From assembly GCA_001795385.1 (NCBI GenBank), contig MGOU01000010.1:203-64202 (forward strand): a DNA stretch of 64,000 bases. Reading direction: 5' to 3'. A program made the translations under genes and the position numbers. Below the pieces are notes generated by a model. It saw only the letters and a list, made by a program, of their open reading frames with translations, made no database searches and had not been told where the DNA came from. This DNA comes from Clostridiales bacterium GWD2_32_19 (lineage in GTDB: Bacteria > Bacillota > Clostridia > Lachnospirales > UBA12420). Shown here in pieces: positions 7,602-52,234 of the stretch; position 1 is the first letter of the stretch; each line of letters opens with the position of its first letter.

Positions 7602-7769
7602 AAGTGTAAAATACAATAACACATAAAAAGTGAAATAAAGTATTGTTAAACACTAAAAAATATGATAAAATACACATAAAAGTAGCCTTTTAAATAGCTA
7701 AAATACTATAAGATATAAGGGTTTTTGGATTCAGAAACAGGCTAAATTATACTAAGGAGGAGAAGTAAA

Positions 7770-9593
7770 ATGAAGAAAATAATTAGTTTGCTGTATGTAG
7801 TATCGTTTATGATAATGTTAATTAATCAAACATCTTTTGCGGATGGAATGGTATTCTCACCACCGACAGGCCCTGCTACGCAAATTGAGGTGATACCCGA
7901 GGAAGAGCAATATTGTTTCATTAACTATAACCAAGATTCACAAAGTATGTTTTTGAGCATTGATTTAAAGACAGAGAATGATAAAAAATCAGTTTGGATA
8001 TTTCCGGTACCAGCAGAGCCTAAAGATGTAATAATGAATGTAATAGATGCGCAGTTTTCCATATCGGGGACTGAAGTAAATGATGCTGCAAAGGATAAAA
8101 TAGAAAAGGTAAAGGATGGCATGTTAGCTACACAAATATACCCATTGCTATTTGAGGATGATGACAATAATTGGGGATACAAATCATATGACGGAATGTC
8201 TGCTATGGGCATCATGACGGATGATAGTAGTATAAACGAAACACAGGGAGTCACAGTATACGAGCAAATAGATAAGATGGGGACGAGGACAGAGTTAATT
8301 ACAGCTGTTGATGAAATGAGTATAAAAAAGTACTTAGAAAGTAATGGGGTATATATAAATGAAAAGATATTAAATAGCTTAAAACAATACATAGGACAAA
8401 AATCAACATTCGTGGTTTCTTGGATAACTGATGAAAATCAGTATAATGAGGAATTGCAAATAACTGATAGTGATTCGTTATATACTACACAAGGTAATAA
8501 AAAAGTGGGAGTAAATGTTGTTTTTCCAGCTAAAGAATTATATTTTCCATTGAAACTTACATCCATTTATGATAGTGTTATCGTTCCAGCGAACATTTAT
8601 GTTGTAGGACATGTTAGTCCAAAGCCATACAGTAAGTTAGAACAGTATCTGGAAACTGAGTATTACATTGATGGAAGTATAGATATAAATTCATCTGACG
8701 ATAAAATGAAAGATATTATGTTGTTAAAAAATGTAAATTTAAGCGGTATGGACTATACAAAAATAACAATTAATTCACCTTCGAAAATTTTATCAGAAGA
8801 TTTAATGATAAATAAAGAATCTCCAATTAAAGTTAGTTTTCTTAAATTTATTGCGGTGAATTCATTATTGTTTGGAATATTGTCAGTAATTATTATTTCG
8901 ATTTTATTATCAATCATTTTAGGAAAAGTATTATACAAACAAAATATATCTTTTAAAAGACTTATTATAATAGGGGCAAGCAACATTTTTTCAATAATAG
9001 GGGTAGCTGCTAGTAGTTTTTTAATTTTAAAAGAAGAAGTAAGCAATGAAAGTAAAATGGTAAAGGATAAAGTAAAAGAATTTAGCATAAGTGCAGAAAA
9101 AATATCGATTTGTGGTATTATGGGATTGGTTATTTTTATAATTGCAGTAATATTATCAAGCCAGTCATATTATAGAACAGAAGAATTTGTTGGAATTCCT
9201 CTGGTAGTATTATATTTTATTTCATTAATATTCTTAAGTATAGAAAAGCAGACTATAGAGGTAGGAGATGCGACTAATAAATATATTATATTTGATGTAA
9301 AGAAGATGATTTATGGATTCTTAGTATATATATGTAGCATTATATTTTGTATAGTTGTTTTACAAATTCGTAGTAGTAGCGGAGGAGTAATTATAAGTAC
9401 ATTAATAGCTTTTGCTGTTGTTTTAGTTACTATGGTATTTGTTAATAAATTGCTCAATAAGTTTACGAAGATTGGAATTATTATATTAAATAAAACAAGT
9501 TATTTGAAATTAATATTTCCTGTATTATTTAGTATAGGATTTGTAATAAGTGTTCTTGTATTTTTAGGTTTGATAAATCTACTAATTAAATAG
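7770..9593 (+). CDS. secreted/membrane protein: signal peptide, ~340-aa extracytoplasmic domain, ~7 C-terminal TM helices
   Basis: N-terminal MKKIISLLYVVSFMIMLINQTSFA is followed by a hydrophilic domain and then repeated hydrophobic stretches. The family was not recognised with confidence. Confidence 0.7.
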   Translation: MKKIISLLYVVSFMIMLINQTSFADGMVFSPPTGPATQIEVIPEEEQYCFINYNQDSQSMFLSIDLKTENDKKSVWIFPVPAEPKDVIMNVIDAQFSISGTEVNDAAKDKIEKVKDGMLATQIYPLLFEDDDNNWGYKSYDGMSAMGIMTDDSSINETQGVTVYEQIDKMGTRTELITAVDEMSIKKYLESNGVYINEKILNSLKQYIGQKSTFVVSWITDENQYNEELQITDSDSLYTTQGNKKVGVNVVFPAKELYFPLKLTSIYDSVIVPANIYVVGHVSPKPYSKLEQYLETEYYIDGSIDINSSDDKMKDIMLLKNVNLSGMDYTKITINSPSKILSEDLMINKESPIKVSFLKFIAVNSLLFGILSVIIISILLSIILGKVLYKQNISFKRLIIIGASNIFSIIGVAASSFLILKEEVSNESKMVKDKVKEFSISAEKISICGIMGLVIFIIAVILSSQSYYRTEEFVGIPLVVLYFISLIFLSIEKQTIEVGDATNKYIIFDVKKMIYGFLVYICSIIFCIVVLQIRSSSGGVIISTLIAFAVVLVTMVFVNKLLNKFTKIGIIILNKTSYLKLIFPVLFSIGFVISVLVFLGLINLLIK

Positions 9594-24432: not shown

Positions 24433-24745
24433 AATAAAAAACAGAGAAAGAGAAGAGTATGCTAATACTACTTTTAGAGAGGAAAATCCAGAGGCTGAAA
24501 GATTTTCTAAGGAAAGATTAGCAGAATGTAGCTCTGGAGTTTTTGGAAGAACGCAGCTAGTGAAATGTGCTAGTGGCTAGTAGAACCAACCGTATACCAG
24601 CGTTAATGGGAAATGAGAATTGTCAATTGCACATTTGAATTGTCAATTAATATAGGTGGTACCACGGGTAGAAACTCGTCCTAAGATAAAAATAAGATAT
24701 CAGTAGTTAGATATCAGATTTTATTTTAGGACGAGTTTTTTATTG
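24433..24745 (+). promoter_or_regulatory. T-box riboswitch leader (valS)
   Basis: T-box sequence aatataggtggtaccacggg at 24648-24668. The terminator is aaactcgtcctaagataaaa / ttttattttaggacgagttt followed by a T-run. Stem I has agaga elements, and the specifier region gaauguag contains GUA. Confidence 0.85.
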
Positions 24746-24878: not shown

Positions 24879-27524
24879 ATGAAAAAAGAGTTAGAAACAA
24901 AATATAATCCACAGGAGATGGAAGATAGAATTTATAAAAAATGGCAGGATGAAAAGTATTTTGAGGCAGTGGTTGACAAGAGCAAAAAACCCTACAGTAT
25001 AGTAATGCCACCACCAAATGTAACGGGGGTTTTACATATAGGGCACGCGCTTAACAATTCTTTACAAGACATACTTATAAGATGGAAAAGAATGCAGGGA
25101 TACTCTGTGCTTTGGGTACCTGGGACCGATCATGCTAGTATATCAACAGAGGTAAAAGTTGTTGATAAACTTTTAAAGGAAGGTATAAAGAAAACTGATA
25201 TAACAAGGGAAGAATTTTTAAAAGAAGCATGGGATTGGACTCATAAGTATGGGGGAACTATAGTTAGTCAATTAAGAAAGCTAGGGGTATCATGTGACTG
25301 GTCTCGTGAGAGATTTACAATGGACGAAATGTGTAGTAAAGCAGTACTTGAATCATTCGTTAAGCTTTATGAAAAAGGGTATATATATAGAGGTGAGAGG
25401 ATAACAAATTGGTGTCCACACTGTAAGACAACTATATCTGATGCAGAGGTAGAATATGAAGAGGTTGGGGGCAAATTTTATCATATAAAATATATGATAG
25501 AAGGAACTGATGAATTTCTACAAGTGGCTACAACAAGACCTGAGACAATGTTTGGAGATACTGCTGTAGCGGTAAATCCAAATGACACAAGATACAAAAA
25601 GTATGTTGGTAAAAATGTAATATTACCTATTACAAATAAAAAGATACCAGTAGTTGCTGACGAGCACGCAGATATGGAGTTTGGAACAGGTGTTGTCAAA
25701 ATAACTCCAGGGCATGATCTTAATGATTTTGAAGTAGGTAAAAGAAAAAAATTACCTATAGTTATATGTATAAATGACGATGGTACAATGAATAAAAACG
25801 CTATGCAATATGAGGGTATGGATAGATATGAATGTAGAAAACAAGTTGTAAAGGACCTTGAAACACAAGGACTGTTAGTTAAAGCAGAGGAGCACATTCA
25901 CAATGTAGGAACTCATGATAGATGTAAAATTGTTATTGAACCAATAGTTAAAATGCAATGGTTTGTAGCTATGGAAGAACTTGTAAAACCAGCAATAAGA
26001 GTAGTAAAAACAGATGAAGTACATTTCGTAACAGAAAGGTATGAAAAAATATATATGCACTGGCTAGAAAATATAAGAGACTGGTGTATATCAAGACAAC
26101 TTTGGTGGGGACACAGGATACCTGCTTACTATTGTGATGATTGTGGAGAGATTACTGTATCTATGACTACGCCAAGCAAGTGTAACAAATGTAGTAGTAG
26201 CAATTTAAAACAAGATGAAGATGTTCTTGATACATGGTTCAGCTCTGCATTATGGCCCTTCTCAACTATGGGATGGCCAGATAAAACAGAAGATTTGGAA
26301 TTTTTTTATCCTACAGATGTTTTGATAACAGGTCCTGATATAATATTCTTTTGGGTAGCTCGTATGGTGTTTTCAGGACTTGAATATATGGATAAAATAC
26401 CTTTTAAAGATGTGCTTATAAATGGTATTGTTCGTGACTCAGAAGGTAGAAAAATGAGTAAGTCACTAGGTAATGGTATTGATCCGATAGATGTTGTAGA
26501 AAAATATGGTGCTGATGCTATGAGGTTTATGCTTGTTAGCAATAACACACCAGGAAATGACATGAGATTCTATTGGGATAAGGTTGAAGCAAGTCGTAAT
26601 TTTGCAAACAAGATATGGAACGCGACAAGATTCATAATGATAAACATGGATGAAGAGATGTCAGATATAAATACAGAAAACCTCACCATATCGGATAAAT
26701 GGATATTATCTAGAGTAAATACACTTGCAAAAGAAGTAACAGAGAATATGGAAAAATATGATTTAGGAGTTGGAGCACAGAAAATACAAGACTTCTTGTG
26801 GAGCGAGTACTGCGACTGGTATGTAGAAATGGTAAAGCCAAGATTATATAATAAAGAGGATGAAACCCGACATGCAGCACTCTGGACACTAAAGACTGTA
26901 CTAATAAATGCATTGAAACTGCTACATCCATATATGCCTTTTATCACAGAAGAAATATTTACTACGCTTCAAGATACTGAGGAGACAATAGTACATGCTA
27001 AATGGCCGGAATACAATTTTAAATGGAATTTTGCGAGTGAAGAAGAACAAACAGAAATCATAAAAGATATAGTAAAAGGTATTAGAAATGCAAGACTAGA
27101 AAAGAATATAGTACCATCAAGAAAAATAAGGGCAGTGATAGTGACAGAGGATAGAACTCTTATGGATACAATAGAAAAACAAAAAGATATATTTAATATA
27201 CTTGTTAATACAAATGAGATAAGTGTTTTAACACAAAAAAATACAGATACAGACAATGCTATATCTATAATAGTAAAAAATGCAATCGTTTATTTACCAC
27301 TTAAAGGGCTTATAGATTTTGATCAGGAGATAGAAAGATTAGGTAAGGAAAAAGAAAGACTAGAAAAAGAAATAGAAAGAATAGATGTTAAATTAGCAAA
27401 CGAAGGTTTTGTAGCAAAAGCTCCAGCTAAAGTAATAGAGGAAGAAAAGGAAAAAAGGAATGGATACAAAAATATGTTAGGAAAAGTTTCGGAAGAGATA
27501 AAAAGTTTAGAAGTTAACAAATAG
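24879..27524 (+). CDS. valS: valine--tRNA ligase
   Basis: HIGHALN and KMSKS motifs, a C-terminal coiled coil, 881 aa. Confidence 0.97.
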   Translation: MKKELETKYNPQEMEDRIYKKWQDEKYFEAVVDKSKKPYSIVMPPPNVTGVLHIGHALNNSLQDILIRWKRMQGYSVLWVPGTDHASISTEVKVVDKLLKEGIKKTDITREEFLKEAWDWTHKYGGTIVSQLRKLGVSCDWSRERFTMDEMCSKAVLESFVKLYEKGYIYRGERITNWCPHCKTTISDAEVEYEEVGGKFYHIKYMIEGTDEFLQVATTRPETMFGDTAVAVNPNDTRYKKYVGKNVILPITNKKIPVVADEHADMEFGTGVVKITPGHDLNDFEVGKRKKLPIVICINDDGTMNKNAMQYEGMDRYECRKQVVKDLETQGLLVKAEEHIHNVGTHDRCKIVIEPIVKMQWFVAMEELVKPAIRVVKTDEVHFVTERYEKIYMHWLENIRDWCISRQLWWGHRIPAYYCDDCGEITVSMTTPSKCNKCSSSNLKQDEDVLDTWFSSALWPFSTMGWPDKTEDLEFFYPTDVLITGPDIIFFWVARMVFSGLEYMDKIPFKDVLINGIVRDSEGRKMSKSLGNGIDPIDVVEKYGADAMRFMLVSNNTPGNDMRFYWDKVEASRNFANKIWNATRFIMINMDEEMSDINTENLTISDKWILSRVNTLAKEVTENMEKYDLGVGAQKIQDFLWSEYCDWYVEMVKPRLYNKEDETRHAALWTLKTVLINALKLLHPYMPFITEEIFTTLQDTEETIVHAKWPEYNFKWNFASEEEQTEIIKDIVKGIRNARLEKNIVPSRKIRAVIVTEDRTLMDTIEKQKDIFNILVNTNEISVLTQKNTDTDNAISIIVKNAIVYLPLKGLIDFDQEIERLGKEKERLEKEIERIDVKLANEGFVAKAPAKVIEEEKEKRNGYKNMLGKVSEEIKSLEVNK

Positions 27525-29810: not shown

Positions 29811-30212
29811 TTAAACTGCATTTCTTACTATTGCAACTATTTTATCAATTGGGATGTCAACTACCGAACCAATATTGAAAATGAAGCCTCTATCGCATTT
29901 TCTATCAGGGTCAGGGCATCCACCGCCTCTTCTTCCACCATAGCCTAGGCCACCATAACCGTCATAACCTCTGCCATAGTTGCCATAGTCTCCACATCCA
30001 CCCCTTGAGCATCCGTTTCCTAAAGCGCATCCAGGAGCAGGGCCGATACATGTAGTTATTCTTATAAAACATGGGTTAACTTTTATAATTACACCTGTGA
30101 ATCCACAACCAGATTGTCCTCCGCTTTCAGTAAATATTGTTACTGTTTCACCAATTTGATCGACCAAGTGGTCTACGAGTTTTACATCGCAACAAAAATT
30201 ATTATCTGACAT
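29811..30212 (-). CDS. Cys/Gly/Tyr-rich protein, probable spore coat-type structural protein
   Basis: 133 aa with 13 Cys. The central low-complexity region is GCSRGGCGDYGNYGRGYDGYGGLGYGGRRGGGC, flanked by beta-rich segments. It has a strong SD (aagggaggg) and a sigma-K-like promoter upstream. Confidence 0.6.
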   Translation of the reverse strand: MSDNNFCCDVKLVDHLVDQIGETVTIFTESGGQSGCGFTGVIIKVNPCFIRITTCIGPAPGCALGNGCSRGGCGDYGNYGRGYDGYGGLGYGGRRGGGCPDPDRKCDRGFIFNIGSVVDIPIDKIVAIVRNAV

Positions 30213-31491: not shown

Positions 31492-31645
31492 AAACAATGA
31501 AGTTTATAATAACTCTACAATGACGATCTTATCAGTAGATAAAGTATTGGAAAAAATAATTTATATGATATATTTAATATTCTCTTTCGAAAATAAAGAG
31601 GATATTTTTTGTGTAAAAAATTCTTTCATTTCACTTAATTGTTCT
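31492..31645. repeat. ~150-bp direct repeat, copy 1 (ABC-exporter 3'-end remnant plus genuine splB 3' end)
   Basis: Aligns with 34691-34839 at roughly 85% identity by eye. 31492-31543 mimics the last codons of the ABC gene, with a 1-nt deletion. Confidence 0.8.
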
Positions 31646-32568
31646 TTTGTGTAAACATACTTTCCATAGCCGAATTGACCGTATTTAAATTTCCTTTCAT
31701 CTTCATTCATGGGTAATGTTGTGTTTGGAAAGACATTTAATATTTTATTTTTGGCTGTTATTGTATATCTATGAGAAATAACTTCGAAGGATATATCATG
31801 TTTATAATTTTTTGGTACTTTAGCTGATAATTCATCAATAAGTTCAGAGTAATCCGTTTTCCAATCATCATACAAAAACACAGGTGCAATTATGAATCCA
31901 GATGGATAACCTGCATTCATAATCTTTTGGCTAGCTTCGATACGTCTTGACTTTGAGGGAGTGGAATGCTCGTATGCACTTATGATTTTGTCAGTATTAA
32001 TGCTAAATCTTATGGTCGTGTGGTTGTTATGATCAAGAGTAAGAAGTGTATCTACATCGGTATATTTTGTAACAAATCGGAACAGGCCATTTTTTTCTTT
32101 TGCAAAGAAATTGATTGTTCTCTCAAGTATATTTGTATAAGGCTCAACAGGGATTGGGTCAGAAGTTGCTGAACCTTCAAATATAGTTATATTGTCACTT
32201 TTGGCTATATACTTTTTCGCATTATCTAATATATCATCAACATTAACAAAGACCTTTGTATATGGTTTGTCTCCTAATTTGGTATTTAAATAACAATATT
32301 CACATTGTCCTGTACATCCAGATATGAGGGGAAGTTGGTAATCAGCCGAAGGTTTACATGTCTCGAACTTAGATACTCGTTTTACCCCGACAACTAATGT
32401 TTGTTTACCCTCTTTATATTTTAGAGCAGGATTATCATTTGCTTGAAAATGAACTCTATTATCTATTATAATGTCTACATTTTTATCTTTAAATTTATCA
32501 TATATTTTCTGACCTATCGCGTATTCTAATGCTTTCTTTTCAAAGAAAATTCTTTTTGGAACAAACAT
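31561..32568 (-). CDS. splB: spore photoproduct lyase (radical SAM)
   Basis: CTGQCEYCYL (CxxxCxxC) and collinear similarity to B. subtilis SplB (FVP...ALEY, RFVTK, GYP.GFI.APV). The start is moved to ATG 32566-32568 behind aggaggga, because the tracked 415-aa form adds an implausible N-terminus. Confidence 0.9.
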   Translation of the reverse strand: MFVPKRIFFEKKALEYAIGQKIYDKFKDKNVDIIIDNRVHFQANDNPALKYKEGKQTLVVGVKRVSKFETCKPSADYQLPLISGCTGQCEYCYLNTKLGDKPYTKVFVNVDDILDNAKKYIAKSDNITIFEGSATSDPIPVEPYTNILERTINFFAKEKNGLFRFVTKYTDVDTLLTLDHNNHTTIRFSINTDKIISAYEHSTPSKSRRIEASQKIMNAGYPSGFIIAPVFLYDDWKTDYSELIDELSAKVPKNYKHDISFEVISHRYTITAKNKILNVFPNTTLPMNEDERKFKYGQFGYGKYVYTKEQLSEMKEFFTQKISSLFSKENIKYII

Positions 32569-32682
32569 ATGATCCCTCCTTTTTGTACTAGTATAACCTG
32601 AAAATTTAAAAATAGTTGGTGTGGAGTTTATTCTTATAATATTACATAAAATTAACAAAAAATGACAAATTACAGTAAAATA

Positions 32683-32711
32683 TTGACAAAATAATGAAAT
32701 AGACATATAAT
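32683..32711 (+). promoter_or_regulatory. perfect consensus sigma-A promoter upstream of the ABC exporter
   Basis: TTGACA (32683-32688), 17-nt spacer, TATAAT (32706-32711). Confidence 0.75.
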
Positions 32712-32739
32712 AATTTAAAATACATAAGAGAAAGTGTCT

Positions 32740-49555: not shown

Positions 49556-50629
49556 ATGAACAAAATAATATTTACTGGTGGTGGAACTGCTGGGCATGTA
49601 GTGCCTAATATGGTTCTAATATCAGAACTTAGTAAAGAAGGTTGGGATATAAACTATATAGGTAGTGAAAATGGTATGGAAAGAGAGCTTATAGAAAAGA
49701 TGGGCACACCATATCATGCCATAGCTACAGGAAAGCTTAGGAGATATTTTGATGTAAAAAACTTTACAGACCCATTTAAAGTAATAAAGGGAGTATTTGA
49801 AGCAGTAGGAGTGATAAGAAAAATAAAGCCAGATATCCTTTTCTCTAAGGGTGGATTTGTCTCTGTACCTGCAGTACTTGCTGGATGGTTAAATGGAGTA
49901 CCTGTCATTATACATGAATCTGACATGACACCAGGGCTTGCAAACAAAATATCAATGGCATTTTCAAAAAAAGTATGTGTTAACTTTCCAGAAACTCTAA
50001 GTTACATAGGCAAAAATAAAGCAGTGCTCACAGGAACACCAATGAGAGAAGAACTATTTAAAGGAAGCAAATTAAAAGGGTTTGAAATTTGTGAATTTAA
50101 TAAAGAAAAACCAGTTCTATTACTTATAGGTGGTAGCCAGGGTTCAAAAAAATTAAATAGTATTCTAAGGGACGGAATAAATGAGTTACTTGAAAAGTTT
50201 CAAATTGTGCATTTATGTGGAAAAGGCAATATTGACAAAGAACTAAGTAGTATAAATAGCTACAAACAGTTTGAATATTTAACAGATGAGTTAACACACA
50301 TATTTGCGATTACAGATATTGTTGTATCAAGAGCAGGAGCTAATACAATATATGAATTATTACAACTACAAAAACCAAATATTTTAATACCACTATCTGC
50401 AAAATCAAGTAGAGGCGATCAAATATTAAATGCAAAATCATTTCAAAAGCAGGGCTTTAGCATAGTTCTTGATGAGGATGAAATTACTACAAAAGATTTT
50501 GTGAACAAAATCTACGAACTTTATGATAATAGAGAAATATATATAAATAATATGAAGAAAAGTACATTGAAAGATGGAAAAGATGCAATTATCAGTTTAA
50601 TAAAACAAGAATCAAAAAAATCGAGCTAA
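49556..50629 (+). CDS. murG: undecaprenyldiphospho-muramoylpentapeptide beta-N-acetylglucosaminyltransferase
   Basis: GGGTAGHVVP N-terminus and the ...GGSQGS... and SRAGANTI motifs. Confidence 0.92.
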   Translation: MNKIIFTGGGTAGHVVPNMVLISELSKEGWDINYIGSENGMERELIEKMGTPYHAIATGKLRRYFDVKNFTDPFKVIKGVFEAVGVIRKIKPDILFSKGGFVSVPAVLAGWLNGVPVIIHESDMTPGLANKISMAFSKKVCVNFPETLSYIGKNKAVLTGTPMREELFKGSKLKGFEICEFNKEKPVLLLIGGSQGSKKLNSILRDGINELLEKFQIVHLCGKGNIDKELSSINSYKQFEYLTDELTHIFAITDIVVSRAGANTIYELLQLQKPNILIPLSAKSSRGDQILNAKSFQKQGFSIVLDEDEITTKDFVNKIYELYDNREIYINNMKKSTLKDGKDAIISLIKQESKKSS

Positions 50630-50644
50630 TGCTCGATTTTTTTG
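50613..50644. terminator. bidirectional terminator overlapping the murG stop
   Basis: A-run, atcgagc-taat-gctcgat, T-run. Confidence 0.7.
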
Positions 50645-50645
50645 A

Positions 50646-51890
50646 TTACATATATCTTCTACTTCTAAGTCTTGGTCGACATGAACGACAACCTGAAAAA
50701 TCATCCTTATCGTCGTCATCAAGATTAAAAGCAGATACAGCAGTTTTATAAGGTTCTCTTCTGCCGTTACAATTTATACAGTCTTCGTTACAACCACAAC
50801 CAAACTCACAATCATAACCACACATATTATCTTCGGTTATAAAGTGTTTGCCCTTTTCGCAGAAAATATCTTCCTCATATTCATCAGGCATATATAAATC
50901 ATTCTCGGGTAACATTTCATCATTTTCGTAAGCACCTCTCACATCCATGTTAGGTGAAACATTATTTTGGTAAGCACCGCTCACATCCATGTTAGGTGAA
51001 ACATTGTTTTGGTAAGCACCGCTCACATCCATGTTAGGTGAAACATTATTTTGATAAGCACCTCTTACATCCATGTTAGGTGAAACATTATTTTGATAAG
51101 CACCTCTTACATCCATGTTAGGTGAAACATTGTTTTCGTAAGCACCTCTTACATCCATATTAGGTGAAACATTGTTTTCGTAAGCACCTCTCACATCCAT
51201 GTTAGGTGAAACATTGTTTTGGTAAGCACCTCTCACATTCATATTAGGTGAAATATTATTTTCATAATTATCTCCCATGAAAAGAGGTTCGAAATCTTCA
51301 TCTTCCATGTCAAAATCATTTTCTATTGGTAGCTCTTTGTTTACACCTAGAACATTATTATCGTTTTCCATTGCTCTGTAGCTTATACAGAACCTTTTGT
51401 AATAGTTTTCAAGAATGTTATAATGCATAATTTCAGCTCTCAATATGGTGGTAAGTATCGTCTTAATGCGTGTATCTGCTATCTCACTTATTAATTTTCT
51501 ATATCCGTCAATACCAGCTTTTTTTAGAGACATATCAGATTTTAACATATCACAAATATTTTTCTTATAATCTACCAATTTAGCAGACCAATACTCTGAT
51601 TTATGATTGCTATATTTATACTCAGGGTCACCACCAAGCGTTATAATTAAGTCAGCAAGGATGTGCATATGTTCCATATCATCAACGTGTATTTCTTCTA
51701 CATCTTCTGCTAAATCTTTATTAACATCCTCATAAAAGTTTAAATGATACATATATTGCATAACCAGTGTAAGCTCGCTTACTTCACCAGCATAAATATT
51801 CATTAACATATCAGCATAATCTCTGTTTAAATCCATGGTATTTGCTTCTGGATTTATAGGTTTATTATTTGAAGTATAGTTGTCATACAT
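50646..51890 (-). CDS. ferritin-like diiron-motif domain, 8 x 14-aa tandem repeats and a Cys-rich tail (spore coat-like)
   Basis: N-terminal E(36/39), E73xxH76, E136 and E153xxH156 ligand pattern (GEVSE, MEHMH, LISE, AEIMH). Repeats are NNVSPNMDVRGAYQ/E x8. The tail has CEFGCGCNEDCINC and GCRSC. Confidence 0.7.
   Translation of the reverse strand: MYDNYTSNNKPINPEANTMDLNRDYADMLMNIYAGEVSELTLVMQYMYHLNFYEDVNKDLAEDVEEIHVDDMEHMHILADLIITLGGDPEYKYSNHKSEYWSAKLVDYKKNICDMLKSDMSLKKAGIDGYRKLISEIADTRIKTILTTILRAEIMHYNILENYYKRFCISYRAMENDNNVLGVNKELPIENDFDMEDEDFEPLFMGDNYENNISPNMNVRGAYQNNVSPNMDVRGAYENNVSPNMDVRGAYENNVSPNMDVRGAYQNNVSPNMDVRGAYQNNVSPNMDVSGAYQNNVSPNMDVSGAYQNNVSPNMDVRGAYENDEMLPENDLYMPDEYEEDIFCEKGKHFITEDNMCGYDCEFGCGCNEDCINCNGRREPYKTAVSAFNLDDDDKDDFSGCRSCRPRLRSRRYM
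50925..51260 (-). repeat. 42-bp in-frame tandem repeat, 8 copies
   Basis: The unit ggtgaaacattrttttsgtaagcaccgctcacatccatgtta recurs head to tail. Copies differ at a few positions, giving R/S and Q/E changes. Confidence 0.95.
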
Positions 51891-51981
51891 AAAAAATCCC
51901 CCCCTTTAATATGTTACCAGATACCGATACCACACGATAGTTGCAAAAATTTTAATGGTATTTGGTATTCGATTATCATTA

Positions 51982-52008
51982 TATAATATGTTAAATTATC
52001 AAAAATGT
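51982..52008 (-). promoter_or_regulatory. sigma-K-like promoter (AC-N16-CATATTATA)
   Basis: The minus strand reads ac-(16 nt)-catattata, about 90 nt upstream of the ATG at 51890. Confidence 0.35.
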
Positions 52009-52057: not shown

Positions 52058-52234
52058 TTAATAATTATAATAATTGCCTCTAGCAAAAGGACAAGATGGA
52101 CGATATCTAATATCAATCTGATTGCAGTTAAAACAACAACAGTCATTAGGCCACACTAAACCAAAACTGGGATTAAGACCTTTAGTGCCTCTGCAACAGC
52201 CGCAACCTATATAATGTAAACCTAAAACATACAT
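52058..52234 (-). CDS. untracked 58-aa Cys-rich protein
   Basis: ggaggtgaaatt-ATG; hand translation MYVLGLHYIGCGCCRGTKGLNPSFGLVWPNDCCCFNCNQIDIRYRPSCPFARGNYYNY* (9 Cys); it has its own terminator. Confidence 0.65.
   Translation of the reverse strand: MYVLGLHYIGCGCCRGTKGLNPSFGLVWPNDCCCFNCNQIDIRYRPSCPFARGNYYNY

What the first reader, a model, noticed from the sequence alone, without database searches (positions are those of the whole stretch)
50646..51890. Ferritin-like protein carrying 8 perfect-register 42-bp repeats and a Cys-rich tail
The first ~165 aa carry an E / ExxH / E / ExxH ligand pattern (GEVSE, MEHMH, LISE, AEIMH), typical of ferritin-like diiron four-helix bundles. Spore-coat CotJC is in this superfamily.

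Next come 8 head-to-tail copies of NNVSPNMDVRGAYQ/E (nt 50925-51260). These differ only at a few nucleotides, giving R/S and Q/E changes. The tail is acidic and Cys-rich (CEKGKHF..CGYDCEFGCGCNEDCINC..GCRSCRPRLRSRRYM).

The near-identity of the repeats implies recent expansion and likely copy-number variation between strains. A CATATTATA box with AC 16 nt upstream suggests late mother-cell (sigma-K) expression. This points to a coat or exosporium component with a variable surface array.
Basis: partly seen in the sequence, partly recalled or inferred. Interest (0 to 1): 0.6.

Follow-up and report, generated by a model that had tools for sequence, protein, structure and literature searches.

The report
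Ferritin-like spore-coat candidate with repeat linker
This is a real, conserved gene from an uncultured spore-forming Clostridia bacterium that joins an altered ferritin-like domain to a repeat-filled acidic linker, a cysteine cluster and an arginine-rich tail; it is most likely a structural protein of the spore envelope, which makes it an unusual variant of a known kind and not a new kind of system.

Summary
The ORF (50646-51890, minus strand, 414 aa), the eight in-register 42-bp repeats (50925-51260) and the Cys-rich C-terminus are all real.

The N-terminal 20-175 aa form a ferritin-like four-helix bundle (Pfam PF00210 above threshold; AF2 pLDDT >90; Foldseek hits Mn catalase and bacterioferritin). 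The aligned metal-site positions read E39/D71/H74/K123/E153/H156, against E-E-H-E-E-H in 134 of 152 relatives.

The full architecture occurs in only four proteins, all from groundwater/sediment Clostridia assemblies. Each has a different repeat in the linker. N- and C-terminal parts are under purifying selection (dN/dS 0.15-0.31).

Spore association is indirect but consistent:
- The window encodes spore photoproduct lyase.
- A sigma-K-like promoter is conserved upstream.
- The same strict motif precedes two other Cys-rich ORFs in the window.
- The C. difficile relative CD2865 is sigma-E-dependent and was detected in spores.
- Other relatives carry LysM domains or Cys-rich repeat tails.

No copy-number variation was seen: the gene is identical in four independent assemblies.

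Verdict: a probable mother-cell-made spore-envelope protein and a new variant of a known kind. Moderate interest.

The parts
50646..51890 (-). Complete ORF, 414 aa plus stop codon
   Evidence: ORF list. An identical protein is annotated as hypothetical in Clostridiales MAG GCA_003518385.1 and in three other assemblies. dN/dS against orthologues is 0.15-0.31.
51366..51833 (-). Ferritin-like four-helix bundle (aa 20-175) with metal-site signature E39/D71/H74/K123/E153/H156
   Evidence: PF00210 at 35.1 bits, above GA. PDB phmmer hits 9viw and 8w1d. AF2 pLDDT >90 over aa 20-175. Foldseek hits KatB Mn catalase, bacterioferritins and DPSL. Site signature.
50865..51365 (-). Acidic, Asn/Met-rich linker predicted to be disordered (aa 176-342)
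   Evidence: pLDDT <50 with no secondary structure. Net charge about -24. Not alignable among the four orthologues, each of which has its own repeats.
50925..51260 (-). Eight in-frame 42-bp tandem repeats encoding NNVSPNMDV(R/S)GAY(Q/E), aa 211-322
   Evidence: TRF. Unit coordinates. Variable columns and pairwise distances. Longest exact internal repeat is 65 nt.
50763..50864 (-). Conserved Cys/His cluster FCEKGKHF-x8-CGYDCEFGCGCNEDCINC (aa 343-376). Invariant residues: C344, H349, C361, C365, C367, C374.
   Evidence: Alignments A1 and A2. dN/dS is 0.31. No Pfam or PDB family; the only matches are non-significant ones to metal-binding Cys motifs (E 0.5-0.7).
50649..50699 (-). Arg-rich C-terminal tail FSGCRSCRPRLRSRRYM (aa 398-414), net charge +6
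   Evidence: R402, R405, P406, R409, R411 and R412 are invariant in all four orthologues. Charge.
51982..52008 (-). Promoter-like element AC-N16-CATATTATA (sigma-K type). It also reads as sigma-A TAAACA-17-TATTAT.
   Evidence: Conserved in L001 and nearly in L008 against a diverged 5' UTR. The C. difficile sigma-K consensus is -35 AC with a -10 such as CATATAAT (PMC3789822).
51898..51907 (-). Shine-Dalgarno sequence AAAGGGGGGG, 7 nt upstream of the ATG
   Evidence: Sequence. Conserved in the orthologous loci.
50610..50647 (.). Bidirectional intrinsic terminator shared with the convergent murG-like gene
   Evidence: Terminator scan: 17-bp stem with T-runs on both sides.
52058..52234 (-). Conserved upstream companion ORF: a 58-aa Cys-rich protein (9 Cys) that forms its own transcription unit
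   Evidence: Homologous ORFs sit upstream of the orthologues in L001 and L008. It has its own AC-17-CATATAATA at 52336-52309. A terminator hairpin at 52045-52017 is read from the sequence. No family hit.

Best explanation
The gene most likely encodes a spore-envelope (coat or exosporium) structural protein made in the mother-cell cytoplasm of an uncultured endospore-forming Clostridia lineage.

Proposed roles of the four parts:
- The N-terminal ferritin-like bundle provides a stable, probably oligomerising core. It belongs to the same clostridial clade as C. difficile CD2865. Its dinuclear metal site has been remodelled by a coupled E71D and E123K change, so it probably no longer holds a canonical di-iron or di-manganese centre. 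It would then act structurally or as a one-metal site.
- An acidic disordered linker of about 165 aa acts as a spacer. Its length is set by lineage-specific repeat expansion, here 8 x 14 aa.
- The conserved Cys/His cluster cross-links the protein into the envelope, by disulfides or by a bound metal.
- The invariant Arg-rich tail docks onto an acidic partner.

Shown: the fold, the site substitutions, the repeats, purifying selection on both ends, the narrow distribution, synteny with a small Cys-rich ORF, and promoter-motif conservation.

Inferred: sporulation-specific expression, localisation, and the role of each module.
For: Host: spore photoproduct lyase lies in the same window.

Protein features:
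- There is no signal peptide or hydrophobic segment in the sequence (reading of the sequence). This fits assembly from the mother-cell cytoplasm.
- Both ends are under purifying selection (dN/dS 0.15 for the N-terminal domain, 0.31 for the C-terminal part against P0002), while the linker is replaced by different repeats in each orthologue.

Promoter evidence:
- A conserved AC-16-CATATTATA sits upstream in three species.
- The strict motif AC-N16/17-CATAT[AT]ATA occurs 4 times in the window against 0.66 expected.
- Three of those hits lie directly upstream of the three Cys-rich ORFs that have no family hit: the target, the 58-aa ORF and the 133-aa ORF.

Family evidence:
- P0180 (39% identity, E 1e-29) is the orthologue of C. 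difficile CD2865. The basis is 32/40 identity to the mapped CD2865 promoter in Table S7, an adjacent hydrolase like CD2864, and the name 'bacterioferritin [C. difficile]'.
- CD2865 is sigma-E-dependent, SpoIIID-repressed and detected in the spore proteome (PMC3789822).
- Other relatives carry an N-terminal LysM domain without a signal peptide (P0016, P0122; one cluster member is named SafA by its source).
- Others carry Cys-rich tandem-repeat tails ending in RRYYC (P0060), or N/Y/D-rich linkers with Arg-rich tails (P0095). Decorating the ferritin core with low-complexity tails is therefore a recurrent theme.
- Cys-rich self-assembling proteins are the known building blocks of clostridial spore surfaces (CdeC, CdeM, CsxA; PMC6101409, PMC7333573).
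Against: - There are no expression or proteomic data for this organism.
- The promoter also reads as a moderate sigma-A site. One of the four strict-motif hits (+32686) is a perfect sigma-A promoter, so the motif cannot separate the two sigma factors.
- CD2865 is sigma-E-dependent, not sigma-K-dependent, and has the canonical EEHEEH site.
- The neighbours are housekeeping genes (murG-like, Bax1-I, HIT, thioredoxin, fab genes), not sporulation genes.
- The most distant orthologue (L010) lacks both the small ORF and the motif.
- The C-terminal modules have no detectable homologue of known function.
Confidence: 0.5

Rival explanations
1. It is an oxidative-stress enzyme of vegetative or sporulating cells, built like a rubrerythrin. 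The ferritin-like domain would reduce peroxide or O2. The C-terminal Cys cluster would bind Fe or an Fe-S centre and pass electrons to it, with the neighbouring thioredoxin as part of the redox chain.
For: - PF02915 Rubrerythrin scores 23.4 bits against GA 22.8, and Mn-catalase and bacterioferritin are the best fold matches.
- A ferritin-like domain followed by a Cys-rich domain echoes rubrerythrin.
- A thioredoxin gene is the divergent neighbour in the window and in L010.
- The Cys motif weakly resembles Fe-S and Zn cluster motifs (E 0.5-0.7).
Against: - The helix-C glutamate, a metal ligand in every ferritin-like class, is replaced by Lys, and the bridging helix-B Glu by Asp.
- A disordered acidic linker of about 165 aa with variable repeats between the two redox centres is incompatible with the fixed electron-transfer geometry of rubrerythrins.
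- The Cys spacing (C-x3-C-x-C-x3-C-x2-C) is not two CxxC pairs, and there is no rubredoxin Pfam hit.
- Thioredoxin adjacency is absent in L008 and interrupted by four genes in L001.
Confidence: 0.2
2. It is a Dps-like nucleic-acid-binding protection protein. A ferritin-like oligomer would use its Arg-rich C-terminal tails to bind and compact DNA, as Dps proteins use Lys/Arg-rich tails.
For: - It has sequence and fold similarity to the DPS-like protein PA4880 (8w1d, E 2.8e-5).
- The tail is invariant and highly basic, RxCRPRLRSRRY.
- P0095 also ends in an Arg-rich tail.
Against: - NCBIfam Dps models score 14-17 bits against cut-offs of 158-250.
- The protein is strongly acidic overall (net about -57), and an acidic linker next to the tail would compete with DNA.
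- A mother-cell-type promoter would not place the protein in the forespore, where spore DNA is.
- The Cys cluster has no role in this model.
Confidence: 0.1
3. It is a cargo protein of a protein nanocompartment (encapsulin-type ferritin-like cargo), and the conserved C-terminal peptide acts as the targeting signal.
For: Relatives give weak NCBIfam hits to the EncB and encapsulin-associated ferritin families (25-41 bits). A conserved C-terminal peptide is the hallmark of such cargo.
Against: - All those hits fall far below the cut-offs of 90-125.
- No gene near the target gene in the window or in the three orthologous loci has a shell-protein annotation.
- By my recollection of the literature, known targeting peptides are hydrophobic/Gly-rich, not Arg-rich.
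Confidence: 0.03
4. It is not a functional feature: either an assembly artefact in a repeat region or a decaying gene with a runaway microsatellite-like expansion.
For: The array is known only from short-read metagenome assemblies. Only one population carries 8 copies.
Against: - The array is identical in four independent assemblies.
- The longest exact internal repeat is 65 nt, below the assembly k.
- There are no indels and the frame is intact.
- Both flanking domains are under purifying selection.
- The SD, promoter and terminator are conserved.
Confidence: 0.02

Closest known systems
C. difficile CD2865 ('putative bacterioferritin') and the ~170-aa clostridial ferritin-like clade
   Same: The N-domain is homologous to this clade. 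The P0180 orthologue shows 39% identity over 88% of the domain (E 1e-29), and about 600 representatives score E<1e-10. CD2865 is a mother-cell (sigma-E) gene whose product is found in spores (PMC3789822).
   Different: CD2865 is a stand-alone 177-aa domain with the canonical EEHEEH site and a sigma-E promoter. The window protein has EDHKEH, about 240 extra residues (linker, Cys cluster, Arg tail) and a sigma-K-like -35. The function of CD2865 itself is untested.
CotJC / CotCB / CotD manganese-catalase-type spore coat proteins
   Same: They are ferritin-like four-helix-bundle proteins built into the spore coat. The C. difficile cotCB and cotD operons are sigK-dependent. Mn catalase KatB is the best structural match.
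   Different: PF05067 scores below threshold (22.4 against 27), and NCBIfam Mn catalase reaches at most 20 bits against a cut-off of 350 in the orthologues. There is no cotJA/cotJB-type operon. The helix-C ligand is lost. CotJC-type proteins have no repeat linker or Cys tail.
Cysteine-rich spore-surface assembly proteins (CdeC, CdeM, CsxA, CotY/ExsY)
   Same: They are Cys-rich proteins of the spore surface that self-assemble and cross-link (PMC6101409, PMC7333573, PMC8546674). CdeC (CD1067) has a mapped sigma-K promoter. This would be the working analogy for the C-terminal Cys cluster and for the neighbouring 58-aa and 133-aa Cys-rich ORFs.
   Different: There is no detectable sequence similarity (no Pfam, NCBIfam or PDB hit). 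Those proteins have no ferritin-like domain.
Rubrerythrin
   Same: A ferritin-like domain is followed by a C-terminal Cys-rich metal-type motif. PF02915 is marginally above threshold.
   Different: The Cys spacing is different, a long disordered linker separates the two parts, and the dinuclear site is degenerate.
Repeat-bearing spore-surface proteins such as BclA collagen-like glycoproteins
   Same: Both have a low-complexity tandem-repeat region. bclA1-3 are in the sigma-K regulon of C. difficile. That repeat number differs between strains or lineages in BclA is my recollection, not something tested here.
   Different: The repeat here is a 14-aa N/D/M-rich unit, not GXX collagen. No glycosylation or surface exposure is shown.

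Membership tests
Ferritin-like superfamily (Pfam PF00210 / clan Ferritin) | Four-helix-bundle domain scoring above the family threshold | tested here: met
   PF00210 at 35.1 bits against GA 24.5. AF2 gives four long helices with pLDDT >90. Foldseek probability is 1.00 to bacterioferritins and Mn catalases.
Ferritin-like superfamily (diiron/dimanganese carboxylate proteins) | Complete E / ExxH / E / ExxH ligand set | tested here: not met
   The aligned positions read E39, D71xxH74, K123 and E153xxH156. 134 of 152 relatives read EEHEEH.
Manganese catalase / CotJC | PF05067 or NCBIfam Mn-catalase score at or above the cut-off | tested here: not met
   PF05067 scores 22.4 bits against GA 27 and covers only profile positions 18-83 of 284. 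NF052557 scores 18-20 bits against a cut-off of 350 in P0002 and P0003, gives no hit in P0004, and is not listed for the window protein.
Manganese catalase / CotJC | cotJA-cotJB-cotJC operon context | tested here: not met
   The upstream gene is an unrelated 58-aa Cys-rich ORF with its own terminator. No CotJB-like annotation appears in any of the four loci.
Rubrerythrin | Diiron domain plus a C-terminal rubredoxin-type Fe(Cys)4 domain with two CxxC pairs | tested here: not met
   PF02915 is marginal (23.4 against 22.8). There is no rubredoxin hit. The Cys spacing is C-x3-C-x-C-x3-C-x2-C.
Bacterioferritin / Dps / DPSL | Equivalog model score at or above the cut-off | tested here: not met
   TIGR00754 scores 17.8 against 125.6, NF040955 scores 17.1 against 250, and NF009990 scores 14.4 against 158.
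Clostridial CD2865-like ferritin-like clade (uncurated) | Significant full-domain similarity to clade members | tested here: met
   Profile hits at E 1e-37 to 1e-29 to Haloimpatiens, Peptococcaceae and Clostridioides proteins. There are 593 representatives at E<1e-10.
Clostridial CD2865-like ferritin-like clade (uncurated) | Mother-cell sporulation control and presence in spores | not testable with these tools
   This is known only for CD2865 (PMC3789822). For the window gene there is only a conserved promoter-like motif.
Encapsulin ferritin-like cargo | EncB / encapsulin-associated ferritin model above the cut-off, and an adjacent shell gene | tested here: not met
   There is no hit for the window protein. 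Relatives score 25-41 bits against cut-offs of 90-125. No neighbour has a shell-like annotation.
Cys-rich exosporium proteins (CdeC/CsxA/ExsY) | Sequence homology to a described family | tested here: not met
   The C-terminal part has no Pfam, NCBIfam or PDB match. The relation is an analogy only.

The most novel reading that the evidence does not exclude
The coupled E71D and E123K change would be a recurrent, convergent switch that turns a dinuclear-metal ferritin-like enzyme into a metal-poor structural building block. It is seen in 10 of 152 family representatives, and these are scattered among canonical neighbours in a crude NJ tree. In this lineage the block would be equipped with an expandable acidic repeat spacer, a metal- or disulfide-forming Cys knot and an Arg-rich docking tail. 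Together these would form a previously undescribed, non-collagen filament or nap element of the spore surface, co-produced with a dedicated 58-aa Cys-rich partner.
Probability: 0.2. Interest if true: 0.6.

Novelty: new variant of a known kind. Interest (0 to 1): 0.37.

Why it matters
Spore coats and exosporia of Clostridia outside the few model species are almost uncharted, and their proteins are hard to recognise by homology. This locus offers a concrete, testable candidate.
- It has a ferritin-like core related to a spore-associated C. difficile protein of unknown function (CD2865). Its metal site has been remodelled in a coupled, apparently recurrent way.
- It is fused to modules typical of self-assembling spore-surface proteins.
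- It illustrates a general pattern in this clade: the ferritin core is repeatedly decorated with LysM, Cys-rich, repeat or Arg-rich appendages. That pattern could guide annotation of coat proteins in uncultured spore formers and motivate work on CD2865.

The practical impact is modest, because the full architecture is confined to a few groundwater MAGs.

Tried and rejected
- A word-indexed profile search with the C-terminal module (A2) returned nothing, not even the four source proteins, so it is uninformative. It was replaced by back-translated pattern scans of GTDB genomes and JGI metagenomes, which found only the P0002 and P0003 lineages.
- AF2 with the 4-sequence alignment failed (mean pLDDT 35). 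It was repeated with 34 sequences. The N-domain became confident, but the rest stayed below 50, so nothing can be said about the fold of the Cys cluster.
- The afdb50 fold library was unavailable.
- The loose sigma-K pattern is not enriched. The strict-pattern hit at +32686 is a perfect sigma-A promoter.
- Genomic contexts of stand-alone relatives in Haloimpatiens and Peptococcaceae were uninformative, and simple sigma-factor pattern searches upstream of them gave nothing.
- Rfam finds nothing in or near the locus; the only hit in the window is a T-box at 24435-24686.
- The 5' UTR of the target has no significant structure (z = 0.0).
- PHROGs gives only a weak hit (24 bits) to a family of unknown function, so a phage origin was not pursued.
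- The encapsulin-cargo, Dps and rubrerythrin readings were considered and ranked low (see the rival explanations).
- The PDB profile search of the Cys module gave only non-significant matches, to the DIM-5 pre-SET Zn cluster and a 2Fe-2S ferredoxin (E 0.5-0.7).
Full report
OBSERVATION

The ORF at 50646-51890 on the minus strand is real and encodes 414 aa.
- A run of seven G (51898-51904) lies 7 nt upstream of the ATG.
- The gene ends in a bidirectional terminator (50610-50647) shared with the convergent murG-like glycosyltransferase gene.

Tandem Repeats Finder reports a 42-bp period with 8.2 copies, 93% matches, no indels and score 557.
- The eight units occupy exactly 51260-50925 (aa 211-322) and encode NNVSPNMDV(R/S)GAY(Q/E).
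- Eight of the 42 columns vary, four synonymous and four non-synonymous. Units differ pairwise by 1-6 nt.
- The longest exact internal repeat is 65 nt. That is shorter than the k-mers in the assembly names (k127, k141), so the array is resolvable from short reads.
- The same 414-aa protein is on 8 contigs read.
- In the four independent assemblies fetched, the gene DNA is 100% identical to the window. In three of them so is about 5 kb of locus.

The array is therefore real. The data give no sign of copy-number variation, but all these contigs probably come from one population.

THE N-TERMINAL DOMAIN

Evidence that it is ferritin-like:
- Pfam PF00210 (Ferritin) scores 35.1 bits against a gathering score of 24.5.
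- Rubrerythrin is marginal (23.4 against 22.8) and Mn_catalase is below threshold (22.4 against 27).
- No NCBIfam model comes near its cut-off.
- phmmer against PDB sequences finds a tandem 'bacterioferritin' (9viw, E 3e-9) and the DPS-like protein PA4880 (8w1d, E 3e-5).
- With a 34-sequence alignment, AlphaFold2 gives pLDDT >90 for aa 20-175 as a four-helix bundle. Everything after aa 180 stays below 50.
- Foldseek's best matches to this model are Anabaena KatB Mn catalase, bacterioferritins, DPSL and Thermus Mn catalase.

- In both PDB alignments, and in an alignment with 151 relatives from the exhaustive HMMER search, the canonical positions are E39, D71-x-x-H74, K123 and E153-x-x-H156.
- Of the 152 sequences, 134 read EEHEEH and 10 read EDHKEH, including the window protein and its three orthologues. 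Only two sequences carry one of the two changes alone. E-to-D on helix B and E-to-K on helix C are therefore coupled.
- In a crude neighbour-joining tree the six stand-alone EDHKEH proteins are scattered, each with canonical nearest neighbours. This hints at recurrent origin, but the tree is weak.
- I infer that the Lys occupies or neutralises one metal position, so the canonical dinuclear site is lost. This needs metal analysis.

THE REST OF THE PROTEIN
- Aa 176-342 are acidic (net about -24), rich in Asn and Met, and predicted to be disordered.
- This linker cannot be aligned among the four orthologues. P0002 has about two NNVxPxMDx units, P0003 has short MD(L/V/M) repeats, and P0004 has ARYPMEN(L/V) repeats. 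The lineage keeps an acidic spacer but not its sequence, and the 8-unit array expanded after the split from P0002.
- Aa 343-376 form a conserved Cys/His cluster. C344, H349, C361, C365, C367 and C374 are invariant.
- The last 13 residues form an invariant Arg-rich tail, RxCRPRLRSRRY.
- dN/dS against P0002 and P0003 is 0.15-0.20 for the N-domain and 0.31 for the C-terminal 92 aa. Both ends are under purifying selection.
- The C-terminal part has no Pfam, NCBIfam or PDB relative. Its only matches are non-significant ones to Zn- and Fe-S-binding Cys motifs.

DISTRIBUTION
- In a 5.8-billion-protein collection, only four proteins share the full architecture. All come from 'Clostridiales bacterium' MAGs or from metagenome assemblies, several labelled groundwater or sediment.
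- In the exhaustive search of 1.84 billion representatives, only P0002 and P0004 match beyond the N-domain among the best 150 hits.
- Pattern scans for the Cys module in 185,579 GTDB species genomes and in JGI metagenomes recover only the P0002 and P0003 lineages.
- The word-indexed search with the C-terminal profile returned nothing, not even the query proteins, and is uninformative.

CONTEXT
- In all four loci the gene is convergent with a murG-like GT28 gene, followed by Bax1-I and HIT genes. The upstream side varies.
- In three of four loci a small Cys-rich ORF lies directly upstream. In the window it is 52058-52234, 58 aa with 9 Cys. It has its own promoter-like element, SD and terminator hairpin.
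- The window also encodes spore photoproduct lyase (PF20903, 392 bits), so the host is an endospore former.

PROMOTER
- It is conserved in L001 and nearly so in L008, while the downstream 5' UTR of L008 is unrelated. That is a modest phylogenetic footprint.
- The loose pattern is not enriched in the window (6 observed, 8.7 expected).
- The strict form AC-N16/17-CATAT[AT]ATA occurs four times against 0.66 expected.
- Three of those hits sit directly upstream of three Cys-rich ORFs that have no family match: the target, the 58-aa ORF, and a 133-aa Cys/Gly-rich ORF at 29811-30212.
- The C. difficile sigma-K consensus is -35 AC with a -10 such as CATATAAT. Its -10 is very similar to that of sigma-E, which has ATA at -35 (PMC3789822).
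- Two caveats apply. The fourth strict hit is a perfect sigma-A promoter, TTGACA-17-TATAAT. The target's element also scores 9/12 as a sigma-A site.

FAMILY EVIDENCE FOR SPORE ASSOCIATION
- The N-domain's relatives are stand-alone proteins of about 170 aa. Those that carry a source name come from Clostridium, Haloimpatiens, Peptococcaceae, Heliorestis and Clostridioides.
- P0180 (177 aa, 39% identity) falls in a cluster that includes C. difficile proteins named 'bacterioferritin'.
- Its locus has an adjacent alpha/beta hydrolase gene.
- Its upstream region matches 32 of 40 positions of the mapped sigma-E promoter listed for CD2865 in Table S7 of Saujet et al. 2013.
- P0180 is therefore the CD2865 orthologue.
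- CD2865 is down-regulated in a sigE mutant (ratio 0.19), de-repressed in a spoIIID mutant (2.2), has a mapped sigma-E promoter, and is marked as detected in the spore proteome.

Other relatives carry appendages:
- P0016 and P0122 have an N-terminal LysM domain without a signal peptide. One cluster member is named SafA by its source.
- P0060 has six KDDHKKDDC repeats and a Cys-rich tail ending in RRYYC.
- P0095 has an N/Y/D-rich stretch followed by an Arg-rich tail.
- P0005 has a Cys-rich tail.
- P0045, P0055 and P0082 have repeat-rich N-termini.

Decorating this ferritin core with low-complexity, Cys-rich or peptidoglycan-binding modules is thus a recurrent theme. The window protein is one elaborate example of it.

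INTERPRETATION

The best-supported reading (about 0.5) is a mother-cell-made structural protein of the spore envelope.
- The remodelled ferritin-like bundle is the core.
- The acidic repeat region is an expandable spacer.
- The Cys/His cluster is a cross-linking or metal site.
- The Arg-rich tail is a docking peptide.
- The lack of any signal peptide fits assembly from the mother-cell cytoplasm.

Rival readings:
- A rubrerythrin-like redox enzyme (0.2). The lost helix-C ligand and the long disordered linker between the would-be redox centres count against it.
- A Dps-like nucleic-acid binder (0.1). Model scores and the very acidic bulk of the protein count against it.
- Encapsulin cargo (0.03).
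- An artefact or decaying gene (0.02).

COMPARISON AND NOVELTY
- It is a member of the ferritin-like superfamily by fold and by Pfam score.
- It is not a member of the Mn-catalase/CotJC, rubrerythrin, bacterioferritin, Dps or encapsulin-cargo families. For each, a defining feature was tested and not met.
- It works most like known Cys-rich, repeat-bearing spore-surface proteins (CdeC, CsxA, BclA) but is not homologous to them.

I rate it a new variant of a known kind. The architecture and the EDHKEH site are undescribed, but the biology it points to is familiar and the distribution is tiny. The most novel reading not excluded is a recurrent enzyme-to-scaffold switch that yields a non-collagen nap or filament element. 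I give that about 0.2.

Noticed in passing
window 52058-52234 (-), with promoter-like motif 52336-52309 and terminator hairpin 52045-52017: A 58-aa ORF with 9 Cys (MYVLGLHYIGCGCCRG...YRPSCPFARGNYYNY) is conserved directly upstream of the target in two other species (L001 55 aa, L008 54 aa). It has no family hit. Its leader carries a small 5' hairpin (AAGAGG..CCTCT) with compensatory changes in L001. It is a probable partner or co-regulated small spore protein.
   Followed up: partly
window 29811-30212 (-), motif at 30285-30258, hairpin about 30263-30236: A 133-aa Cys/Gly/Tyr-rich ORF with no family hit is preceded by the same strict AC-N17-CATATTATA motif. A perfect 12-bp 5' hairpin follows (-14.1 kcal/mol, z = -4.6). 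It looks like a second coat-protein candidate sharing a promoter-plus-leader-hairpin design with the 58-aa ORF.
   Followed up: partly
window 31561-32571 (-): Spore photoproduct lyase (PF20903, 392 bits) marks the host as an endospore former. The listed ORF (to 32808) starts too far upstream; the true start is near 32571.
   Followed up: yes
window 32686-32712 (+): A perfect sigma-A promoter (TTGACA-17-TATAAT) lies in the splB/ABC-transporter intergenic region. It also matches the strict 'sigma-K' pattern, which shows that the pattern alone cannot discriminate between sigma factors.
   Followed up: yes
window 24435-24686 (+): A T-box leader (RF00230, 112 bits) lies upstream of the valyl-tRNA synthetase gene (24879-27524).
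   Followed up: no
L010 about 7700-7900 (upstream of the P0004 orthologue): A GC-rich insert of about 150 nt sits in an otherwise AT-rich intergenic region, replacing the small Cys-rich ORF found in the other three loci. It has no Rfam match, and its nature is unknown.
   Followed up: partly
relatives P0027, P0034, P0079, P0108, P0121, P0122 (ferritin-like clade): The coupled E-to-D (helix B) and E-to-K (helix C) metal-site change recurs in six stand-alone relatives. Their nearest neighbours are canonical EEHEEH proteins, which suggests convergent remodelling of the site. This rests only on a crude NJ tree.
   Followed up: partly
L015 4900-5000 (Clostridioides sp., upstream of P0180): The upstream region matches the experimentally mapped sigma-E promoter of C. 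difficile CD2865 at 32 of 40 positions. This ties an uncharacterised 'bacterioferritin' of the C. difficile spore proteome to this ferritin-like clade.
   Followed up: yes
window 7770-9593 (+): A 607-aa protein has an N-terminal signal-like segment, a weak DUF2330 match (23 bits, below GA) and a long multi-pass membrane C-terminus. Its function is unknown.
   Followed up: no
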